Shown piece after piece: positions 1 through 6,000 of a stretch of DNA of 23,116 nucleotides. Position numbers: made by a program. The stretch covers positions 1 to 23,116 of the forward strand of contig JBDGSE010000023.1 of NCBI GenBank assembly GCA_042217695.1, in the 5' to 3' direction. Source of the DNA: Candidatus Nanohaloarchaea archaeon. GTDB taxonomy: Archaea; Nanohalarchaeota; Nanosalinia; Nanosalinales; Nanosalinaceae. Within the stretch, counting starts at the first letter, position 1. Each line of letters begins with the position of its first letter.

Positions 1-3000
1 TTCGAGGAGCAAAAAATACTCAACACTGCCTATACCTACATGGATTGAGGTGTTCAACCCATCTCGGAGACCCGGTTACAGGAAACGGACAAGAGGTATG
101 TCCTTGTGGAGCAGACGGAACTGCCGAACGGTTTCGTCGACGAAGTGGATGAAAGCATAGAACAGATGATAGAGGAGTCCCGTGCCGGTACAGCCCTGAC
201 CCAGAGACTGGACGACCGTATGAAGGAGATATTTCTGGCCCCCAGCAAACATGCACGGGACATCTACAACCGTCTGTGGATGGAGGCGCTTGACACCGAC
301 TATAACAGGGAGCAGAAAGTCGACCTCGGGGCCGTGAATCAGAGCCACCACAACACCTCTCTGGTCGCAGACGACAGGATGGACGGGGACGAGGACAGGA
401 GGGGAGTCCCGACGTTTCATACCTCTGACTTCCTGGTCTCTGAGTTCTCCAGAGAAGAGGTCGATGCCCTGACGCTGTCACAGGTCATAAAGTATACGAC
501 GATGCCGTACAGCTGGATAACCGGTTCCTCGATCCCCGGCGAGGACCAGGCGGAGCATATATCCATACTCTCCGATAACGTGATGGACCTGGTGGAGGGC
601 CAGAACGAGGACGTGACCGGTAGCGCCAGGCTGGAGATATCCGAAGATGATGCAGGAATCGTCTACGGCGACGAGTACCTGGACCTGGAGGAGTTCAACT
701 ACTCGATGATAGATGGGAAGACCGGCGCCCTCTTCCGGGCATCTTCCGAGACCGCAGGGGCCGCGTCAGGTTACAGGGGCGAGGAACTCTCGGAACACGC
801 CCTTGAACTCGGAAGGCTTCTACAGCTGACCGACGACATACTTGACTACCATCCCGGCGCGGACAAGGACTATCTCTCGGACCTCCGGGAGGGGAAACCG
901 ACCATAATAGTGAGTTACGGACTTGAGGAACTGGAAGGCGAGGAGAGAGAACTACTGCGCAGGGCCGTGGATTCGGAAACAGGGGAGGAAGAGCTCTACG
1001 AGACGGCTGATATCCTGGAGGAAAACGGGGTTATAGATCGGGCCCGGGAAACTGCAGAGGGCCACGCCGAAGAGGCGAAGAGGATAGTGGACGAGGCCTA
1101 CGACTCTGGCCCCATCGAACACAGAGAATACGCGGACGACCTTAACCGGATGGCAGACATCGTTCTCAACCGCGAGGGCCGCTAAACGGGTACAGTAAAA
1201 AACCTTTACACCGGAGTTAAGACTATGCCCGAGGTAAAGATAGGGCTGGAGACCCACGTCCAGCTTGACACGGAGACAAAACTTTTCTGCGGCTGCCCGA
1301 ACGAGGAAGCGGAAGAACCGAACACCCATGTATGTGAGACCTGTCTCGGACACCCGGGAAGCAAGCCACGGCTCAACCGGGAGGTACTTGAACAGGCCGT
1401 CAAGGTCTCGGAGGCGCTGCAGTGCGAGATAGAGGAGGACATATTCTTTTCCAGGAAGACATACTTCTACCCGGACATGTCCAAGAACTACCAGATAACA
1501 CAGTACGAGCTGCCTGTAGGCGTCGAGGGCGAACTGGAGGTAAAGGTCGGCGACGAAAAGAAACCGGTGGGGATCGAAAGACTCCACATCGAGGAGGACC
1601 CTGCCAAGTTGAGACATATCGGGGGCTCGATCTCGAATGCGGATTACACACTCGTGGACTACAACAGGGCGGGGACTCCGCTACTCGAGATCGTTACCGC
1701 ACCTGACTTTGAATCGCCGGAAGAGGCCCGGGAATACCTGAACCAGCTCGTACAGATACTTGAATACCTCGGTGTGTACTCCCCGGATTCCGAGTTCTCG
1801 ATAAAGAGCGATGCCAACATCTCCATCGAGGGCGGTGCCAAGGTGGAGGTCAAGAACATAACAGGTACAAAAGGCATAGAGAAAGCGCTGAACTACGAGA
1901 TATCACGTCAGAAACAGCTCACAAAAAGAGGTCGGGAAGTAGAGCAGGAGACACGGAGCTACTCCGCTGGACAGGAGATAACCGAGAAACTCCGGCAGAA
2001 GGAGACCGAGGAGGACTACGGCTACATATTCGATCCGGACCTCACCCGGCAGAAACTGGACGAAGACTTCCAGGAACGCCTCAGAGAACAGATACCTGAA
2101 CTGCCTCACGAAAAAGTTGAACGCTTCAGAGACGAATACGGCATATCTGACAAACAGGTAGAGTCACTGGTCACAGAACAGGCGCTTGCAGATGATTTCG
2201 AAGCGCTGGCAGAAGAACATGAAACATCGCTCGTGGCGTCCTGGCTCACCGGCGAACTGAAGAAGGTCCTCAACTACAACGAGATCTCCTACGCAAGCTC
2301 CGGTATAGAGACCGGGTGGATAGAGTACCTTATCGGGCTGCTGGAGGATGACCGTATAACAGATAGAAACGCCGAACTCGTTCTCAGGGAGATAGTCGAG
2401 GAACCCCGCCATCCTGAGCGCGTTGTGGAACAGGAAGATCTGCTCAAGGACGAGTCCATCGATGAATACGTTGAAGAAGCGATAGAGGAAAACCCTGGAG
2501 CAGTCGAGGACTTCAACGCGGGGGAAGAAGGCGCGGTCAACTTCCTCGTGGGCCAGGTGATGCAGCTTTCAGGTGGAAAAGCGGACCCGAAGACCGCGAG
2601 AGAAAAAATAATGGAGGAGCTAGAATGAGGGCGGACGACTTTCTCGACGAACACGGAATCGAGTATACAGTGGTGCACCAGGACAACCCCACGAAGACAT
2701 GCGATGACGCGGCTATGGAGCGCGGACTGGATACCTCGCAGATAGTGAAGAGCCTGATAGTTCGTAGAGACGGGGAATACTTCCATGCACTGGTCCCCGG
2801 CGATAGAACGTTGTCCGAGAAAAAGTTTGGAGAACACAGGATGGCGGAACCGGAGAAATCGAAACAGATAACAGGCCAGGAATCCGGAACCGTACACCCT
2901 TTTTCCTCGGAGCTGAAACACTTCGTCGACGAGAGACTGTTCGAGGAGGATACACTCTCCTTCACTACCGGGGACATACTGAAAGGAGTTGTCATGGACT

Positions 3001-6000
3001 CATCCGAGTTCAGGGAAGGCCTGGAAGCTGCCGGCTTCAAGTTCGAGACCGGGGATTACGTGGTATCCGAGGAGGAAGACCTGGAGGAACTCGAGGAGAA
3101 AGGCCTCGACAGCGAGGCCGCAAAATTCGTCGCCGACAAAGGCCTCAGATCGGCCTTCAACCGGCTGCAAACGGAACACAGGCCAGGAGAGATAGTCCGG
3201 GCGTTCAAGAAACTCAGGCGAGAAGACATCCAGGTCACAGAACAGCTCTCACGAGAACTTATCCAGCGCTCGGAGAACGAGACCCACATGCAGAAACTCG
3301 CCGAGGGATACGCCGAGACAGGAGAGTTCCCGGACGAAACCGATTTCGAGCTGGAAAAAGTTGTTGAAAACGCGGTCGACGAGAACCCGGAGGCGGTGGA
3401 GGATTTCAACGCCGGGAAGGACTCCGCCATAAACTACCTTCTGGGCCAGATTATGCAGCAGACCCAGGGAAAGGCCGACGGCGAGAGAACCCGGGAACTA
3501 CTTGAGGAAAAACTCGATGACAGATCTTGAAGAACTGGTCGAAAAAGAAGTGGAAGAACTTTCCGGGAGAGAAGATGTCAGGGCCGTTGCTGTCGTCGGA
3601 AGTTATGCCCGTGGCGAGGACGAACACAACGACATCGATTTCTTTATCATAGTCGACGGTGACTGGCGCAGACGCGAGGGAGAGATGGTCGACGATATAC
3701 TGGTCGAACGGTTCTACAACTCGCTTGAAGGCGCGAAGAACTATCTCGATGGAGACAGCTGGTACACCTCCTACCACTGGTACAGGAACGCCGAGCCGCG
3801 GTACGACCCGGAATCACTCTTTGAAGAACTGGCGGACCTGGCCGAGGAGAAAAGAAACGAGAAGATGTCTGTAAACGAGGAAGAACTGCTCTACACTATC
3901 TGGGACAAAAAGCAGGACCTGGACACCCGGGACGTGGGCCAGAAACGCTACCTGATGAACGAATTCTTCAACTACCTCTTGTTCCAGCACTACCTTTTGA
4001 AGGGAGAGGTACCGGTGAAGACCAACTACCGTGTGAAGAAGCTGAAGGAGTTCGACGGCTACATGTACAAGCTTTCACAGGACTTTCTCACGTCGAGCAG
4101 CACCGGTGATAAGGAAAGGACACTGGAAAAGATGATAGACCACGTTACGAGAAACATTGGGGATCCCGGCCCGGAGTGGGAGACCGAGAAGGAATACATG
4201 GGGGACTAGTCTGAAAGCTTGAAACCTATCTCAAGTTCTTCCTCGTCCGAGAAAACTCTTACCGGGACGTTACCCGAGACAGGTTGCGCCACCTTCCAGT
4301 CGTCGCCGTCCAGGTTGACCTGGCCCTCCTCGATGGAGTCCGCGATGTCTCTCAGGAGGCCTGCAAGCGACTCCTTTTCCAGCAGGAATTCTCTGTCCAT
4401 CTATTTCACCTGTAAAACATCAGTCATGGAGAGGTGCCCTCTCCGTCGGAGGGAAACCGGCGCCACTGGTTTCCTGGCAGGGTTGTTCATGCAAACATCT
4501 CGTCGGGATGCATCTCTTCGCCGCCCAGGAAGTCCTTCTCGACACCCATGTTGCCCTCCTTCAGATCCTTTATGGCGTCCTGGAAGTCTTCCAGTGAGGC
4601 TGAGGCTTTCTCAACTTCTTCGTGTCTTTCCAGGGCGTTGACCGCTGCCTGTTTCACTATCTGCTTTATGTCCCGGCCCGTGAACTCGTCGTCGAGTTCC
4701 GCAGCTATAAGATCTACATCCAGGTCCTCCTCCAGGTCCATCCGTCTCGAGTGGATCTTGAGGATTTCCTGCTTGGCCTCCTCATCAGGTACAGGAACTT
4801 CTATCGCGCTGCACCTGTTCAGAAGCGCGGGATCCATGATGTCCGGGGTGTTGGTCGCGAAGATCGAGATAACGTTGGAGTTCTCGTCCGTATCAAGGCC
4901 ATCCAGTTCGGACAGCAGCTGGCTCATCGTTCTCTCTACTTCTTCGCCACCGTGTCTCCTGTCGTCCAGCCTCTTCTTGGCTATAGCATCTATTTCGTCG
5001 ATGAAGACTATCGCGGGCTTGTCAGAGGAGCGTGCCTGGTCGTAGAGTCTCTTCACTTTTTTCGCGCCTTCGCCGATGAACTTTTCGACCATCTGAGGGC
5101 CGTTGATCATGAACATGTCGGCGTCGTACTCGTTGCTCAGCGCCTTAACCATGTGGGTCTTGCCGGTCCCTGGTTTACCTATCAGCAGCAGGGACTTGTC
5201 CATGTCCATACCCCACTCCTTCATCTTTTCGTGCTTGTCTTCGTCCAGCTGGGCTCCAACGTTGGATTTCAGTGAACGGATTACATGATCGAGACCGCCG
5301 ACATCCTGGAACGTTACCTCGGTCTCGACAGGGTCGAACTCCGCGTCCTTCCCTTTCTCCACGATATCTGTTACCTTGAACGTGTTCGGATCAAGCGCTA
5401 CCTCTGTCCCGGGGGTGAAATCTCCTGCGTCGTAGCCTCTCGGTACTTCAACGCCGTAACGCCCTTTCATGTTGCCGGAGGCCTCCACCCAGATGCGGTC
5501 GCCGTCGAATTCAGAGACCACTACACCCCTCAGAACTGGTGTCTTCAGGTTGGTGGAGTTGGGGTTATCGTCTGACTGATTCCTCTGCTGGAAGTACTGC
5601 GGGAACTGGACCTTCTGTTCCTTTCCCTTTTTCTCGGAGTTTTCCTGTTCTTCGTCTTTGTTCTTCATTTTCTCAGAAATGTCTTTATCTCCCATGTTGA
5701 TCACCCAGCGGCGGATTCGTGTGAGCAGATCCCTGAATCGCCTGATCAAAACCATTCACACCTTTTTGTTCTCGTCTTATCTTTATAAATCAAACATCCT
5801 GCCCCTGTGAACCGGTTTTTGCCACGGAACATAAGTAAACGAGACGCCTGGGCCCCATGGTAACGGGTTCGAGTCCGGCGGGATTTGAACCCGCGACCTA
5901 CAGCTTTCTTCACACAGCTTCCTGACAGGAAAGATGTTCAGGCATTTTCGCCCCGGGAAGCCGGTGTTAGGAGGCTGTCGCTCTTCCACTGAGCTACGGA

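What a model noticed while it worked through the whole genome (the two positions that open the first line are those of the whole stretch)
2625..3530. ProX/YbaK-like deacylase fused to a GatB tail domain, translationally coupled to gatB
g00329 (301 aa) joins an N-terminal YbaK/ProX-type aminoacyl-tRNA deacylase domain (res. 21-117) to the C-terminal helical+YqeY tail of GatB (res. ~165-298), the module by which GatB holds the tRNA. Its start overlaps the stop of the full-length gatB g00328 by 4 nt. This predicts a trans-editing factor that is aimed at its tRNA by a borrowed GatB tail and works with the GatCAB transamidosome (e.g. clearing mis- or un-amidated Asp-tRNAAsn/Glu-tRNAGln, or Ala/Cys-tRNAPro).
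Evidence so far: pfam.tsv: tRNA_edit 7e-16 (21-117), GatB_Yqey 1.4e-18 (240-297). PDB sequence search: res. 241-298 and 165-295 match GatB tails of 3al0_B, 2df4_B, 3h0l_B (E 5e-8 to 8e-5); res. 3-105 match ProX-type trans-editing proteins 1wdv_A and 2cx5_A. genes.tsv: g00328 1225-2628(+), g00329 2625-3530(+). neighbours.tsv: GatB_N next to tRNA_edit in at least 27 of 69 Nanosalinales and only 249 of 100,434 genomes that hold both. ESM Atlas: one cluster of 83 proteins with both domains in 100% of members, 96% Archaea, auto-named only 'YbaK/EbsC family'.
(Added by a program. Inside this text positions count along the whole contig: contig position 1 is position 1 of the stretch shown here. "Call 12" and the like, gene names such as g00115 and contig names such as C1 are that model's own, and its searches are not shown. 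The text may have been shortened before it was handed on; [...] marks where a part breaks off. The agent that wrote the report below was given it as the finding of a first reader that could run no searches.)

Follow-up and report, generated by a model that had tools for sequence, protein, structure and literature searches.

The report
GatB-shaped tRNA deacylase beside gatB
This gene encodes a GatB look-alike in which the amide-making catalytic domain is replaced by a ProX-type aminoacyl-tRNA hydrolase, so it probably proofreads the tRNAs that GatB handles, a quality-control step not yet described.

Summary
ORF 2625-3530(+) encodes 301 aa, and its ATG overlaps the gatB stop by 4 nt.

**Structure.** Residues 1-148 are a ProX/YbaK-fold editing domain (Z 20.2 to ProX 2z0k). 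The catalytic-type Lys42 and the G88xxxP92 loop are invariant. Residues 146-300 match the whole helical+tail region of GatB (295-476, Z 12.6). The protein is therefore a GatB whose cradle domain is replaced by a deacylase.

**Distribution.** It occurs in 34 of 70 genomes of the phylum. A stand-alone ProX is found in nearly all of them, so this is an extra paralog. It follows gatB in 25 of 25 loci. Its editing domain forms its own clade with altered pocket-region residues (C26, T89, H91, T114).

**Independent link to GatB.** 18 other proteins carry a ProX-type domain inserted in, or fused to, a complete GatB.

**Host pathway.** The genome has ND-AspRS, GatCAB and GatDE. No AsnRS or GlnRS was found.

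**Best reading (0.4).** A trans-editing deacylase that docks like GatB on tRNAAsn and clears unamidated or wrong aminoacyl groups.

**Not shown.** Substrate and activity are unknown, and there is no evidence of binding to GatCAB. None of the 7 full-text searches turned up a description of it.

The parts
1225..2628 (+). gatB, full-length Asp-tRNA(Asn)/Glu-tRNA(Gln) amidotransferase subunit B (467 aa)
   Evidence: GatB_N 4-282 and GatB_Yqey 324-466. TIGR00133 at 513 bits against cut-off 314.8.
2613..2617 (+). GGAGG Shine-Dalgarno-like motif inside the 3' end of gatB, 7 nt before the ATG of the fusion
   Evidence: Read directly from the sequence. Its function is inferred.
2625..3530 (+). Fusion gene (301 aa): ProX-type editing domain plus GatB helical+tail module. 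The ATG overlaps the gatB stop by 4 nt (ATGA).
   Evidence: AlphaFold2 model with pLDDT 93.3 and pTM 0.79.
2625..3068 (+). Residues 1-148: YbaK/ProX-fold aminoacyl-tRNA editing domain
   Evidence: VIA-align: Z 20.2, rmsd 2.0 A, 143 residues aligned to 2z0k (ProX-AlaSA, T. thermophilus), and Z 19.3 to 1wdv_A. Foldseek E 9.4e-9. Pfam tRNA_edit.
2748..2750 (+). Codon of Lys42 (in IVKSL), the superfamily's conserved lysine
   Evidence: Invariant in 31 of 31 family members. K in 100% of 43 fusion rows and 93% of 40 canonical ProX rows. That this lysine is the catalytic one in INS/YbaK is recalled knowledge.
2886..2900 (+). Codons of G88-T89-V90-H91-P92, the GXXXP loop. It carries the family-specific T89 and H91.
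   Evidence: G88, H91 and P92 are invariant. H91 is in 100% of fusions against 3% of canonical ProX rows, which have S or P here.
3060..3524 (+). Residues 146-300: counterpart of the GatB helical domain plus YqeY-like tail domain
   Evidence: VIA-align: Z 12.6, 154 residues aligned, model 146-300 to GatB 9a6e_A 295-476. 3ip4_B Z 11.8. Human GlnRS N-terminal domain 4ye6 Z 7.9. YqeY 8xje Z 6.5 for 241-297. NCBIfam gatB models match 182-299.
3345..3524 (+). Residues 241-300: four-helix YqeY-like tail domain with the NxLxGQxMxxTxGKA motif
   Evidence: 51% identical to the organism's own GatB 409-467. Aligned to S. aureus GatB 415-475. D260, G264, S267, N270, G274 and G282 are invariant.
3517..4209 (+). 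Downstream ORF (230 aa) with a Pol-beta-type nucleotidyltransferase domain. Its ATG overlaps the end of the fusion gene by 14 nt.
   Evidence: Pfam NTP_transf_2, E 2.6e-6 (on the longer TTG frame). Present downstream in 23 of 25 fusion loci, but it also follows gatB in genomes without the fusion. It belongs to the cluster; a role in the fusion's function is not shown.

Best explanation
The gene encodes a free-standing (trans-acting) aminoacyl-tRNA deacylase built on the plan of GatB. In GatB, the cradle domain works on the aminoacylated CCA end, while the helical and tail domains hold the D-loop/elbow region of the tRNA. In this protein the cradle is replaced by a ProX-type hydrolytic editing domain, and the helical+tail module is kept. 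The protein should therefore dock on the same tRNAs as GatB (in archaea, tRNAAsn) and present their acceptor end to a hydrolase instead of a kinase/amidotransferase. The most likely job is quality control of the indirect pathway. It would hydrolyse Asp-tRNAAsn that is not held by GatCAB, or another wrong acyl group on that tRNA. That keeps Asp out of Asn codons and recycles the tRNA. Because it uses the same docking surface as GatB, it would compete with GatB rather than bind to it. What is shown: the architecture, the conservation of the catalytic-type residues, the altered pocket signature, the gene linkage, the independent GatB fusions, and the host's dependence on the indirect pathway. What is inferred: hydrolytic activity, the tRNA docking mode, the identity of the tRNA and the identity of the amino acid. 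Sub-odds: active deacylase about 0.75; tail binds tRNA as in GatB about 0.7; clientele is GatB's tRNA about 0.4; the substrate is specifically Asp-tRNAAsn about 0.25.
For: (1) Architecture. Model residues 1-148 match ProX (Z 20.2) and residues 146-300 match GatB 295-476 (Z 12.6). In S. aureus GatB, 1-294 is the cradle, 295-407 the helical domain and 412-475 the tail (PMC2811023, passages). The junction therefore falls at the cradle/helical boundary.

(2) Catalytic apparatus. K42, G88, P92 and G116 are kept in all 43 fusion rows and in at least 93% of 40 canonical ProX rows.

(3) Tail. Four helices are present, including the extra helix that the paper calls GatB-specific (model helices 243-253, 255-262, 267-279, 286-299). 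The D-loop pocket positions V448/449, M452, G457 and A459 correspond to L273, M277, G282 and A284, which are conserved. P461 corresponds to G286, which is variable.

(4) Neofunctionalised paralog. tRNA_edit is found in 66 of 70 genomes, and most fusion-bearing genomes show two or more matches, one of them outside the gatB locus. The fusion is an extra copy in 34 of 70. All tail-fused editing domains lie on one side of a branch with SH-aLRT 99 (alignment, tree). Their specific residues are D4, Q19, C26, T89, H91 and T114.

(5) Linkage. gatB is upstream in 25 of 25 loci. In the 22 loci with a complete gatB ORF, 9 overlap and 5 have gaps of 30 nt or less. The upstream neighbour of gatB is kept in only 3 of 25.

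(6) Rosetta-stone evidence. 17 clusters of 609-705 aa, plus P0142, carry a ProX-type domain inside or in front of a complete GatB, with the Lys and the GLVPP loop kept. Their editing domains belong to the canonical ProX group and not to the tail-fusion clade, so this is an independent fusion event.

(7) Host genome. ND-AspRS scores 566.6 bits against cut-off 353. GatA, GatC, GatD and GatE are present. No AsnRS or GlnRS scores above cut-off.

(8) Within the phylum, 0 of the 5 genomes with an AsnRS have the fusion, against 34 of the 65 without one. These genomes are related, so this is only suggestive.

(9) Precedents in print. H. pylori GluRS2 hydrolyses excess Glu-tRNAGln (PMC3241645, abstract and passages). 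GatB-tail-like modules serve as tRNA binders in GlnRS (PMC1865053 passages; PMC3333875 abstract).
Against: No activity, substrate or tRNA-binding data exist.

The gene is dispensable for the pathway. 26 of the 59 genomes in which gatB was found lack it, among them the single-contig genomes G032, G046 and G065.

Hydrolysing the pathway's own intermediate would cost ATP in a futile cycle.

Local synteny is conserved in this lineage anyway: the AAA ATPase is present in 24 of 25 loci and the NTase in 23 of 25. Linkage alone is therefore weak evidence. In 7 of 22 loci a gap of 330-460 nt separates the two genes, and 6 of those gaps hold a roughly 115-aa ORF that matches Cupin_2 in the three tested.

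The Lys-rich KxGKxK motif of the GatB tail is only partly kept (N262, G264, K265, S267). It is also degenerate in this organism's own GatB.

The tail is not a recent copy of the neighbouring gatB. It forms its own faster-evolving clade in an unresolved archaeal GatB polytomy, so its tRNA specificity may have drifted.

The nearest characterised relative, ProXp-x, acts on Abu- and Ala-tRNAs of several tRNA species (PMC11295145).

No tRNAAsn gene was found in the 83%-complete assembly, so no tRNA features could be compared.
Confidence: 0.4

Rival explanations
1. A general or ProRS-related trans-editing factor. It would clear small mischarged residues such as Ala, Abu, Cys or Ser, on tRNAPro or on several tRNAs. 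The GatB-like tail would only raise overall tRNA affinity, and the position next to gatB would be a relic of how the gene arose or simply co-expression of translation genes.
For: The closest solved relatives are ProXp-x-type proteins: 2cx5/2z0k and 1wdv. ProXp-x is reported to deacylate Abu-tRNAs and, more weakly, Ala-tRNAPro (PMC11295145 passages). Appended helical domains that merely improve tRNA binding are known: the plant ProXp-ala C-terminal domain (PMC9425024 abstract) and the YqeY extension of D. radiodurans GlnRS (PMC1865053). The host's ProRS is the archaeal type (TIGR00408, 587 bits); that this type lacks an INS editing domain is recalled. The gene is accessory, as trans-editing factors usually are.
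Against: A canonical stand-alone ProX is already present in almost every genome of the phylum, including those with the fusion. The fusion's pocket-region residues differ from it. The whole helical+tail module is kept, including most of the D-loop pocket that GatB uses to select its tRNA. Independent fusions place ProX-type domains on complete GatB proteins, where only GatB's tRNAs can be reached.
Confidence: 0.3
2. A repair enzyme for an aberrant side product of the amidotransferase reaction rather than for plain Asp-tRNAAsn. The substrate would be an acyl-tRNA that arises from the activated (phosphorylated) intermediate and that GatCAB cannot finish. Removing this dead-end species would free the tRNA.
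For: The same comparative evidence that links the domain to GatB's tRNAs applies. The family-specific polar residues C26, T89, H91 and T114 point to a substrate unlike those of the canonical ProX. This reading avoids the futile-cycle objection. That activated gamma-glutamyl phosphate cyclises readily is recalled chemistry and comes from no call.
Against: It is purely inferential. Archaeal GatCAB is thought to make Asn-tRNAAsn (PMC2811023), and for Asp no easy cyclisation is known (recalled). No such tRNA-bound side product was found in the literature I searched, and no search was aimed at it.
Confidence: 0.1
3. A non-hydrolytic binder. The editing fold would only hold the aminoacylated 3' end while the tail holds the tRNA body. 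The protein would protect or escort Asp- or Asn-tRNAAsn, for example buffering the pool or handing it to GatCAB or to the elongation factor.
For: GatCAB itself protects the ester bond of its tRNAs about 5- to 8-fold (PMC3241645, Table 2 passage), so protection by a GatB-shaped protein is conceivable. YbaK-fold domains with non-editing roles exist in solved structures (SadB 9qzk_A, Z 14.8).
Against: The lysine and the GXXXP loop that mark active members of the superfamily are invariant across archaeal and eukaryote-like members. That would not be expected if catalysis had been given up.
Confidence: 0.08

Closest known systems
ProXp-x / 'ProX' single-domain trans-editing proteins (T. thermophilus TTHA1699, PDB 2CX5/2Z0K; A. 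pernix APE2540, 1WDV)
   Same: Same fold over residues 1-148 (Z 20.2 and 19.3, rmsd 2.0 A). They are also the best sequence matches in the PDB. The conserved Lys and the GXXXP loop are shared.
   Different: Those proteins have a single domain of about 150-160 aa. This one carries a 150-aa GatB module. Its editing domain is in a separate clade (SH-aLRT 99), with C26, T89, H91 and T114 where canonical members have A/V, G/A, S/P and A/S/G. It coexists with a canonical ProX in the same genome (27% identity).
GatB subunit of GatCAB
   Same: Residues 146-300 match the helical and tail domains, GatB 295-476. The tail is 51% identical to the host's own GatB tail. Most of the D-loop pocket is kept. The gene lies directly after gatB.
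   Different: There is no cradle (GatB_N) domain, so no kinase/amidotransferase site and no known surface for GatA/GatC. It scores 55.7 bits against the TIGR00133 cut-off of 314.8. The helical part is shorter, about 85 aa against 113.
GatB-tail/YqeY modules borrowed by glutaminyl-tRNA synthetases (D. radiodurans GlnRS C-terminal extension; eukaryotic GlnRS N-terminal domain)
   Same: A GatB-like helical+tail module joined to a different catalytic body as a tRNA-binding part. Matches: 2hz7_A by sequence, E 4.2e-7 with the family profile; human GlnRS 4ye6 Z 7.9 and yeast 3tl4 Z 6.1. Described in PMC1865053 (passages) and PMC3333875 (abstract in listing).
   Different: There the partner is a synthetase that makes the aminoacyl-tRNA. 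Here it is a hydrolase that would destroy one.
Plant ProXp-ala with its C-terminal helical domain
   Same: An INS-superfamily trans-editing enzyme with an added helical C-terminal domain that improves tRNA binding (PMC9425024, abstract).
   Different: That paper states the origin of the plant domain is unknown, and the domain confers dimerisation. Here the added module is clearly GatB-derived. No homology between the two C-terminal domains was tested.
Hydrolysis of excess Glu-tRNAGln by H. pylori GluRS2
   Same: The same logic: removal of the unamidated intermediate of the indirect pathway when it is not held by GatCAB (PMC3241645, abstract and passages).
   Different: There the synthetase itself does it, weakly (half-life 54 to 26 min). 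No dedicated editing protein is involved.
GatB proteins with a built-in ProX-type domain
   Same: They join an INS-superfamily editing domain to GatB parts. The Lys and the GXXXP-type loop are kept.
   Different: They keep the whole GatB, cradle included. Their editing domain is of the canonical ProX kind and not of this family's clade. It is inserted in the zinc-loop of the cradle in 14 of them and N-terminal in 4. They were not found in print in my searches.

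Membership tests
INS / YbaK / ProX editing-domain superfamily (Pfam PF04073 tRNA_edit) | Profile match above the curated cut-off | tested here: met
   55.1 bits against 25.5, residues 21-117.
INS / YbaK / ProX editing-domain superfamily (Pfam PF04073 tRNA_edit) | YbaK-type alpha/beta fold | tested here: met
   Z 20.2, rmsd 2.0 A, 143 residues to 2z0k. 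Z 18.9-19.2 to YbaK 1dbu/1dbx. Model pLDDT 93.3.
INS / YbaK / ProX editing-domain superfamily (Pfam PF04073 tRNA_edit) | Conserved lysine and GXXXP loop of the active site (that these define the site is recalled) | tested here: met
   K42, G88 and P92 are invariant in 31 of 31 members and in 43 of 43 fusion rows.
INS / YbaK / ProX editing-domain superfamily (Pfam PF04073 tRNA_edit) | Hydrolysis of an aminoacyl-tRNA ester | not testable with these tools
   Needs a deacylation assay.
YbaK / EbsC Cys-tRNA(Pro) deacylase (NCBIfam TIGR00011), the name the databases give it | Equivalog score above cut-off | tested here: not met
   36 bits against a cut-off of 153.25. The database name 'YbaK/EbsC family' is a superfamily label only.
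ProXp-x subfamily (2CX5 type) | Groups with canonical single-domain ProX proteins in a tree of the editing domain | tested here: not met
   The 45 rows on the fusion side (43 tail-fused domains plus 2 short unnamed representatives) are split from the 40 canonical rows, including this genome's own ProX, at SH-aLRT 99 (quick search, no labelled reference sequences of the named subfamilies in the tree).
ProXp-x subfamily (2CX5 type) | Single-domain architecture | tested here: not met
   301 aa with a second module of 150 aa.
GatB (TIGR00133 / PF02934 + PF02637) | Cradle (GatB_N) catalytic domain | tested here: not met
   No PF02934 match at E<=0.01. gatB equivalog models score 35-58 bits against cut-offs of 315-680.
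GatB (TIGR00133 / PF02934 + PF02637) | Helical domain plus YqeY-like tail domain | tested here: met
   PF02637 at 64.2 bits against 27. Model 146-300 aligns to GatB 295-476, Z 12.6, 154 residues.
GatB (TIGR00133 / PF02934 + PF02637) | Tail-domain hydrophobic pocket proposed to read the D-loop (V449, M452, G457, A459, P461 in S. aureus; PMC2811023) | tested here: met
   By the alignment these positions are L273, M277, G282, A284 and G286. The first four are conserved in the family. The fifth varies (G/A/P).
GatB (TIGR00133 / PF02934 + PF02637) | Lys-rich KxGKxK motif of the tail | tested here: inconclusive
   The window protein has N262-A-G264-K265-D-S267, so 2 of the 4 key positions are kept. 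This organism's own GatB has N-A-G-E-E-G, so the motif is degenerate in the lineage as a whole.
Stand-alone YqeY proteins (PF09424) | Profile match, two-domain YqeY architecture | tested here: not met
   No PF09424 match at E<=0.01. Only the C-terminal half is alike: 8xje Z 6.5, model 241-297 to chain 94-146.

The most novel reading that the evidence does not exclude
tRNA-dependent amidotransferases have a proofreading arm, as aminoacyl-tRNA synthetases do. This protein would be a GatB-shaped, dedicated deacylase that docks on tRNAAsn through the GatB tail and hydrolyses Asp-tRNAAsn that has escaped amidation. It would do the same for the GatB client tRNA in other lineages. In other archaea the same editing activity is built into GatB itself, inserted in the cradle, so that the CCA end can shuttle between an amidation site and a hydrolytic site. 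That would be the first editing enzyme assigned to the indirect pathway. It would add a mechanism to the accepted ones for keeping Asp out of Asn codons, namely channelling in the transamidosome and rejection by the elongation factor.
Probability: 0.25. Interest if true: 0.85.

Novelty: new variant of a known kind. Interest (0 to 1): 0.68.

Why it matters
Organisms without AsnRS or GlnRS deliberately make mischarged Asp-tRNAAsn and Glu-tRNAGln. The accepted safeguards against their use in translation are channelling in the transamidosome and rejection by the elongation factor (the latter is recalled).

A deacylase that carries GatB's own tRNA-holding module, is encoded after gatB, and has counterparts fused into whole GatB proteins would be a third, enzymatic safeguard. 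It also gives a clean natural example of domain swapping on a tRNA-docking scaffold: the same grip on the tRNA, with the opposite chemistry at the acceptor end.

The question is directly testable with one recombinant protein and a handful of charged tRNAs. It also corrects an annotation, since the protein is filed as 'YbaK/EbsC (Cys-tRNAPro deacylase)' and fails that equivalog model. Finally, it extends the INS superfamily, which a 2024 review describes as single-domain apart from the INS domain of ProRS, noting separately the ProRS-fused and plant forms of ProXp-ala (PMC11295145, passages).

Tried and rejected

- Complex prediction of GatB (alignment A3) with the fusion (A1) gave no verdict: score 0.00, controls not run. 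It says nothing either way about binding.
- The look-up of sequencing runs listed no RNA holder, only two DNA runs of one salt-lake study and a third with next to none of the words. No reads were laid, so co-transcription was not tested.
- aragorn on the whole assembly found 11 tRNAs without intron search and 18 (partly implausible) with it. None was tRNAAsn or tRNAPro, so no tRNA identity elements could be compared.
- The metagenome scan with alignment A2 returned only 9 short loci. All were of the P0144 type, and none gave a tblastn match to this genome's GatB.
- The ESM Atlas gave no taxa for P0144.
I could not measure the distance from K42 to the tail pocket, or check whether C26 and H91 are neighbours.

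**Ideas considered and rejected**
- That the tail is a recent duplicate of the adjacent gatB 3' end. The trees put the fusion tails (SH-aLRT 96) and the nanohaloarchaeal GatB tails (99) in separate clades.
- That the downstream nucleotidyltransferase forms a functional pair with the fusion. It, or a 90-aa remnant, follows gatB in fusion-less genomes too.
- That the tRNA at 5870-6003(-) might be tRNAAsn. Its anticodon loop reads CCU, which is Arg.
- That G003/G004 carry a larger fusion, as their 735- and 441-aa open frames suggested. These are ordinary 304-305-aa genes.

**Literature searches that did not turn up the fusion**
- 'YbaK'+'YqeY': 1 paper.
- 'trans-editing'+'ProXp'+'archaea'+'fusion': 4 papers.
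- 'GatB'+'YbaK': 12 papers; I read passages of 3.
- 'Nanohaloarchaea'+'GatB': 0 papers.
- 'Asp-tRNAAsn'+'deacylase': 12 papers, listing only.
- 'ProXp-7/8/9': 2 papers.
- GatCAB tail terms: 24 papers, 12 listed.

The chapter by Kuzmishin Nagy et al. 2020, which defines ProXp-7/-8/-9, is not in the library and was not seen. It could bear on the novelty claim.

Full report
**1. The observation**

The window holds an ATG-started ORF at 2625-3530(+) of 301 aa. It lies directly after a full-length gatB at 1225-2628 (467 aa; GatB_N plus GatB_Yqey; TIGR00133 at 513 bits against a cut-off of 314.8).

The two genes share ATGA at 2625-2628. A GGAGG sits 7 nt before the ATG.

Pfam places tRNA_edit at residues 21-117 and GatB_Yqey at 240-297.

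The gene is real. There are 203 homologues at E<=0.001, and the best 120 are all 295-313 aa with both domains. Every homologue that carries an organism name is a nanohaloarchaeon.

The ORFs on the opposite strand (2289-2921, 2537-3040, 3056-3430) are shadows of this conserved frame. They were not examined further.

**2. Anatomy**

An AlphaFold2 model built from 31 family members is confident (pLDDT 93.3, pTM 0.79).

- Residues 1-148 superpose on single-domain ProX proteins: 2z0k Z 20.2, rmsd 2.0 A, 143 residues; 1wdv Z 19.3; YbaK 1dbu Z 18.9 (Foldseek).
- Residues 146-300 superpose on GatB residues 295-476 (9a6e_A, Z 12.6, 154 residues; 3ip4_B, Z 11.8).
- More weakly, residues 146-300 match the GatB-like N-terminal domain of eukaryotic GlnRS (4ye6 Z 7.9, 3tl4 Z 6.1).
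- Residues 241-297 match YqeY (8xje Z 6.5).

In S. aureus GatB the cradle is 1-294, the helical domain 295-407 and the tail 412-475 (PMC2811023, passages read). The junction in this protein therefore falls at the cradle/helical boundary. The protein is a GatB in which the cradle has been exchanged for a ProX domain.

The tail has four helices, including the extra helix that the paper calls GatB-specific. The alignment lets the proposed D-loop pocket be mapped:

| S. aureus GatB | This protein | Conservation in family |
|---|---|---|
| V448/449 | L273 | conserved |
| M452 | M277 | conserved |
| G457 | G282 | conserved |
| A459 | A284 | conserved |
| P461 | G286 | variable |

The Lys-rich motif is only partly kept. 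It is equally degenerate in this halophile's own GatB.

**3. The editing domain**

K42 (in IVKSL), G88, P92 and G116 are invariant. They are shared with canonical ProX proteins.

I built a tree of 85 editing domains (quick search, SH-aLRT only).

- All tail-fused domains fall on one side of a branch with support 99. Two short unnamed representatives, P0149 and P0170, fall on that side too.
- The other side holds 20 stand-alone ProX proteins of the phylum, 18 unnamed representatives and the editing domains of P0141 and P0142.
- Labelled reference sequences of the named INS subfamilies were not available, so subfamily assignment rests on PDB comparisons. Both the fusion and the genome's stand-alone ProX are nearest to ProXp-x-type structures.

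Six positions are at least 85% conserved in the fusions and rare in canonical ProX: D4, Q19, C26, T89, H91 and T114.

- T89 and H91 lie in the GXXXP loop.
- C26 lies 16 residues before the lysine. From memory, bacterial INS domains have a side-chain pocket residue at that spacing. I could not check the geometry.

The signature argues for a changed amino-acid specificity that is more polar than in Ala/Abu-directed relatives. It does not identify the substrate.

**4. Distribution and context**

Counts for the 70 genomes of the phylum-level set:

| Feature | All genomes | High-quality genomes |
|---|---|---|
| Fusion | 34 of 70 | 17 of 28 |
| gatB | 59 of 70 | 27 of 28 |
| tRNA_edit domain | 66 of 70 | – |
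| AsnRS above cut-off | 5 of 70 | – |

- Most fusion-bearing genomes show two or more tRNA_edit matches, one of them outside the gatB locus. The fusion is therefore an additional paralog and not the lineage's only ProX.
- None of the 5 genomes with an AsnRS has the fusion.
- gatB was found in 33 of the 34 fusion genomes. The exception, G041, is 81% complete and holds only a fragment of the fusion at a contig start.
- Three single-contig genomes (G032, G046, G065) have gatB but no fusion. The protein is accessory.

In the 25 fusion loci fetched from genome contigs, gatB is upstream in all 25. In three of them gatB is cut by a contig end, which leaves 22 with a complete gatB ORF:

| gatB-fusion spacing | Loci |
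|---|---|
| overlap | 9 |
| gap of 30 nt or less | 5 |
| gap of 54 nt | 1 |
| gap of 330-460 nt | 7 |

- Six of the seven long gaps hold a roughly 115-aa ORF; the three tested match Cupin_2.
- Downstream, a nucleotidyltransferase ORF is present in 23 of 25 loci and an AAA ATPase in 24 of 25. The gene upstream of gatB is kept in only 3 of 25.
- The nucleotidyltransferase, or a remnant of it, follows gatB in fusion-less genomes too.

Local synteny is thus generally stable, and linkage alone is only moderate evidence.

The tail is not a recent copy of the neighbouring gatB. Fusion tails (SH-aLRT 96) and nanohaloarchaeal GatB tails (99) are separate clades within an unresolved archaeal GatB group, and the fusion tails have longer branches.

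**5. Beyond the phylum**

Profile searches found the same two-domain protein in other places.

- It occurs in MAGs named Thermoplasmata and Hydrothermarchaeaceae (P0132 group).
- It occurs in a group with N-terminal extensions (P0144, P0135, P0154). These lie in ORF-poor DNA, and one locus has an intron-like gap, so they are probably eukaryotic. That is not established.

More telling are 17 clusters of 609-705 aa, plus P0142, which join a ProX-type domain to a complete GatB.

- In 14 the domain is inserted in the zinc-loop of the cradle, after 'KLFCSC'.
- In 4 it is N-terminal.
- The lysine and a GLVPP loop are kept.

These editing domains belong to the canonical ProX group (34% identity to this genome's stand-alone ProX), so they arose independently of the tail fusion. 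A deacylase built into GatB can only reach tRNAs that GatB binds. This is the strongest argument that ProX-type editing and GatB act on the same tRNAs.

**6. The host's pathway**

The 83%-complete assembly encodes:

- a non-discriminating-type AspRS (NF003483, 566.6 bits against 353);
- GatA, cut by a contig end (457.9 bits against a cut-off of 481.1);
- GatC, GatD and GatE;
- an archaeal GluRS and an archaeal-type ProRS.

No AsnRS or GlnRS scores above cut-off. The organism depends on Asp-tRNAAsn and Glu-tRNAGln as intermediates.

**7. Mechanism**

*Best reading, 0.4.* The protein is a trans-acting deacylase that grips the tRNA as GatB does and offers its acceptor end to a hydrolytic site. 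Its clientele would be GatB's tRNA, which in archaea is tRNAAsn. Its task would be removal of Asp that has not been amidated, or of another wrong acyl group. Because the docking module is the same as GatB's, it would act on tRNA that GatCAB is not holding.

Shown: the architecture, the conserved residues, the paralogy, the linkage, the independent fusions and the pathway context. Inferred: activity, docking mode, tRNA and amino acid.

Precedent for the logic exists. H. pylori GluRS2 hydrolyses excess Glu-tRNAGln (PMC3241645).

*Rivals:*

- A general or ProRS-related editing factor whose tail only adds tRNA affinity (0.3).
- A repair enzyme for an aberrant product of the amidotransferase (0.1).
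- A non-hydrolytic holder (0.08).

*Against the best reading:*

- The gene is dispensable.
- Hydrolysing the pathway's own intermediate has a futile-cycle cost.
- The tail has diverged.
- The nearest characterised relative has broad tRNA usage (PMC11295145).

**8. What is known, and novelty**

The 2024 review of editing and tRNA identity lists eight trans-editing families of the INS superfamily. It states that its members, apart from the INS domain of ProRS, are single-domain proteins. It then notes ProXp-ala fused to ProRS and the plant C-terminal domain. It contains neither 'GatB' nor 'YqeY' (PMC11295145).

Seven full-text searches found no description of this fusion or of ProX-in-GatB proteins. 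The chapter that defines ProXp-7/-8/-9 was not available.

Databases call the protein 'YbaK/EbsC family' or 'Cys-tRNA(Pro) deacylase'. It fails that equivalog model, with 36 bits against 153.

I rate it a new variant of a known kind: a trans-editing factor with a borrowed, specific tRNA-docking module and probably a new client.

**9. Verdict**

The architecture and the link to GatB are sound and are now better founded. Cooperation with a transamidosome and the substrate remain open.
- Interest: 0.68.

Noticed in passing
Proteins P0141, P0142, P0319-P0334 (not in the window): A family of GatB proteins (609-705 aa) carries a ProX-type editing domain. In 14 it is inserted in the zinc-loop of the cradle domain after 'KLFCSC', and in 4 it is N-terminal. 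The conserved Lys and a GLVPP loop are intact. One is named only 'GatB [archaeon]'. The tail of P0141 groups with Woesearchaeota/Nanoarchaeota-type GatB (SH-aLRT 88), and P0323/P0324 look bacterial-like by eye.
   Followed up: partly
P0144, P0135, P0154; loci L099-L107: Homologues of the tail fusion have long N-terminal extensions. They lie in ORF-poor DNA (L099), and L106 has an intron-like gap. They are probably eukaryotic and perhaps organelle-targeted. No gatB match lies beside them. Taxon unknown.
   Followed up: partly
L021, L026, L031, L033, L038, L039 (between gatB and the fusion): In 6 of the 7 loci with a gap of 330-460 nt, an ORF of about 109-122 aa sits between gatB and the fusion gene; the three tested (L021, L026, L033) match Cupin_2. 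L034 has a different 152-aa frame there.
   Followed up: partly
window 3517-4209 (+): A Pol-beta-type nucleotidyltransferase ORF (230 aa, no NCBIfam hit) overlaps the fusion's 3' end by 14 nt. It is full-length in about 16 genomes of the phylum and reduced to a 90-aa C-terminal remnant next to gatB in many others, some with in-frame stops.
   Followed up: partly
window 5870-6003 (-) and 9376-9509 (+): Rfam finds tRNAs of 134 nt with long insertions (64 nt in the first, whose anticodon loop reads CCU). These are intron-bearing tRNA genes, which ARAGORN's default scan of the window misses.
   Followed up: partly
L019 (JBLGBK010000009.1): A 32-kb contig filed under a 'Colwellia polaris' MAG carries nanohaloarchaeal gatB, fusion, NTase and AAA genes (72%, 54%, 58% and 74% identity to the window's). 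The contig is probably mis-binned.
   Followed up: no
G042:C20, G054:C68, G055:C7 (fusion genes): Three fusion genes show one in-frame stop each (TGA, TAA, TAA) in the genome search. These could be pseudogenes in the course of loss, or assembly errors.
   Followed up: no
G052, G053, G042, G049: These genomes have three tRNA_edit matches. G052 and G053 carry a second stand-alone ProX type, only about 37% identical to the common one.
   Followed up: no
L096 3970-4881 (G032): In a fusion-less complete genome, an ORF of 303 aa with no Pfam match and no similarity to the fusion lies downstream of gatB, beyond a short NTase-like remnant.
   Followed up: no
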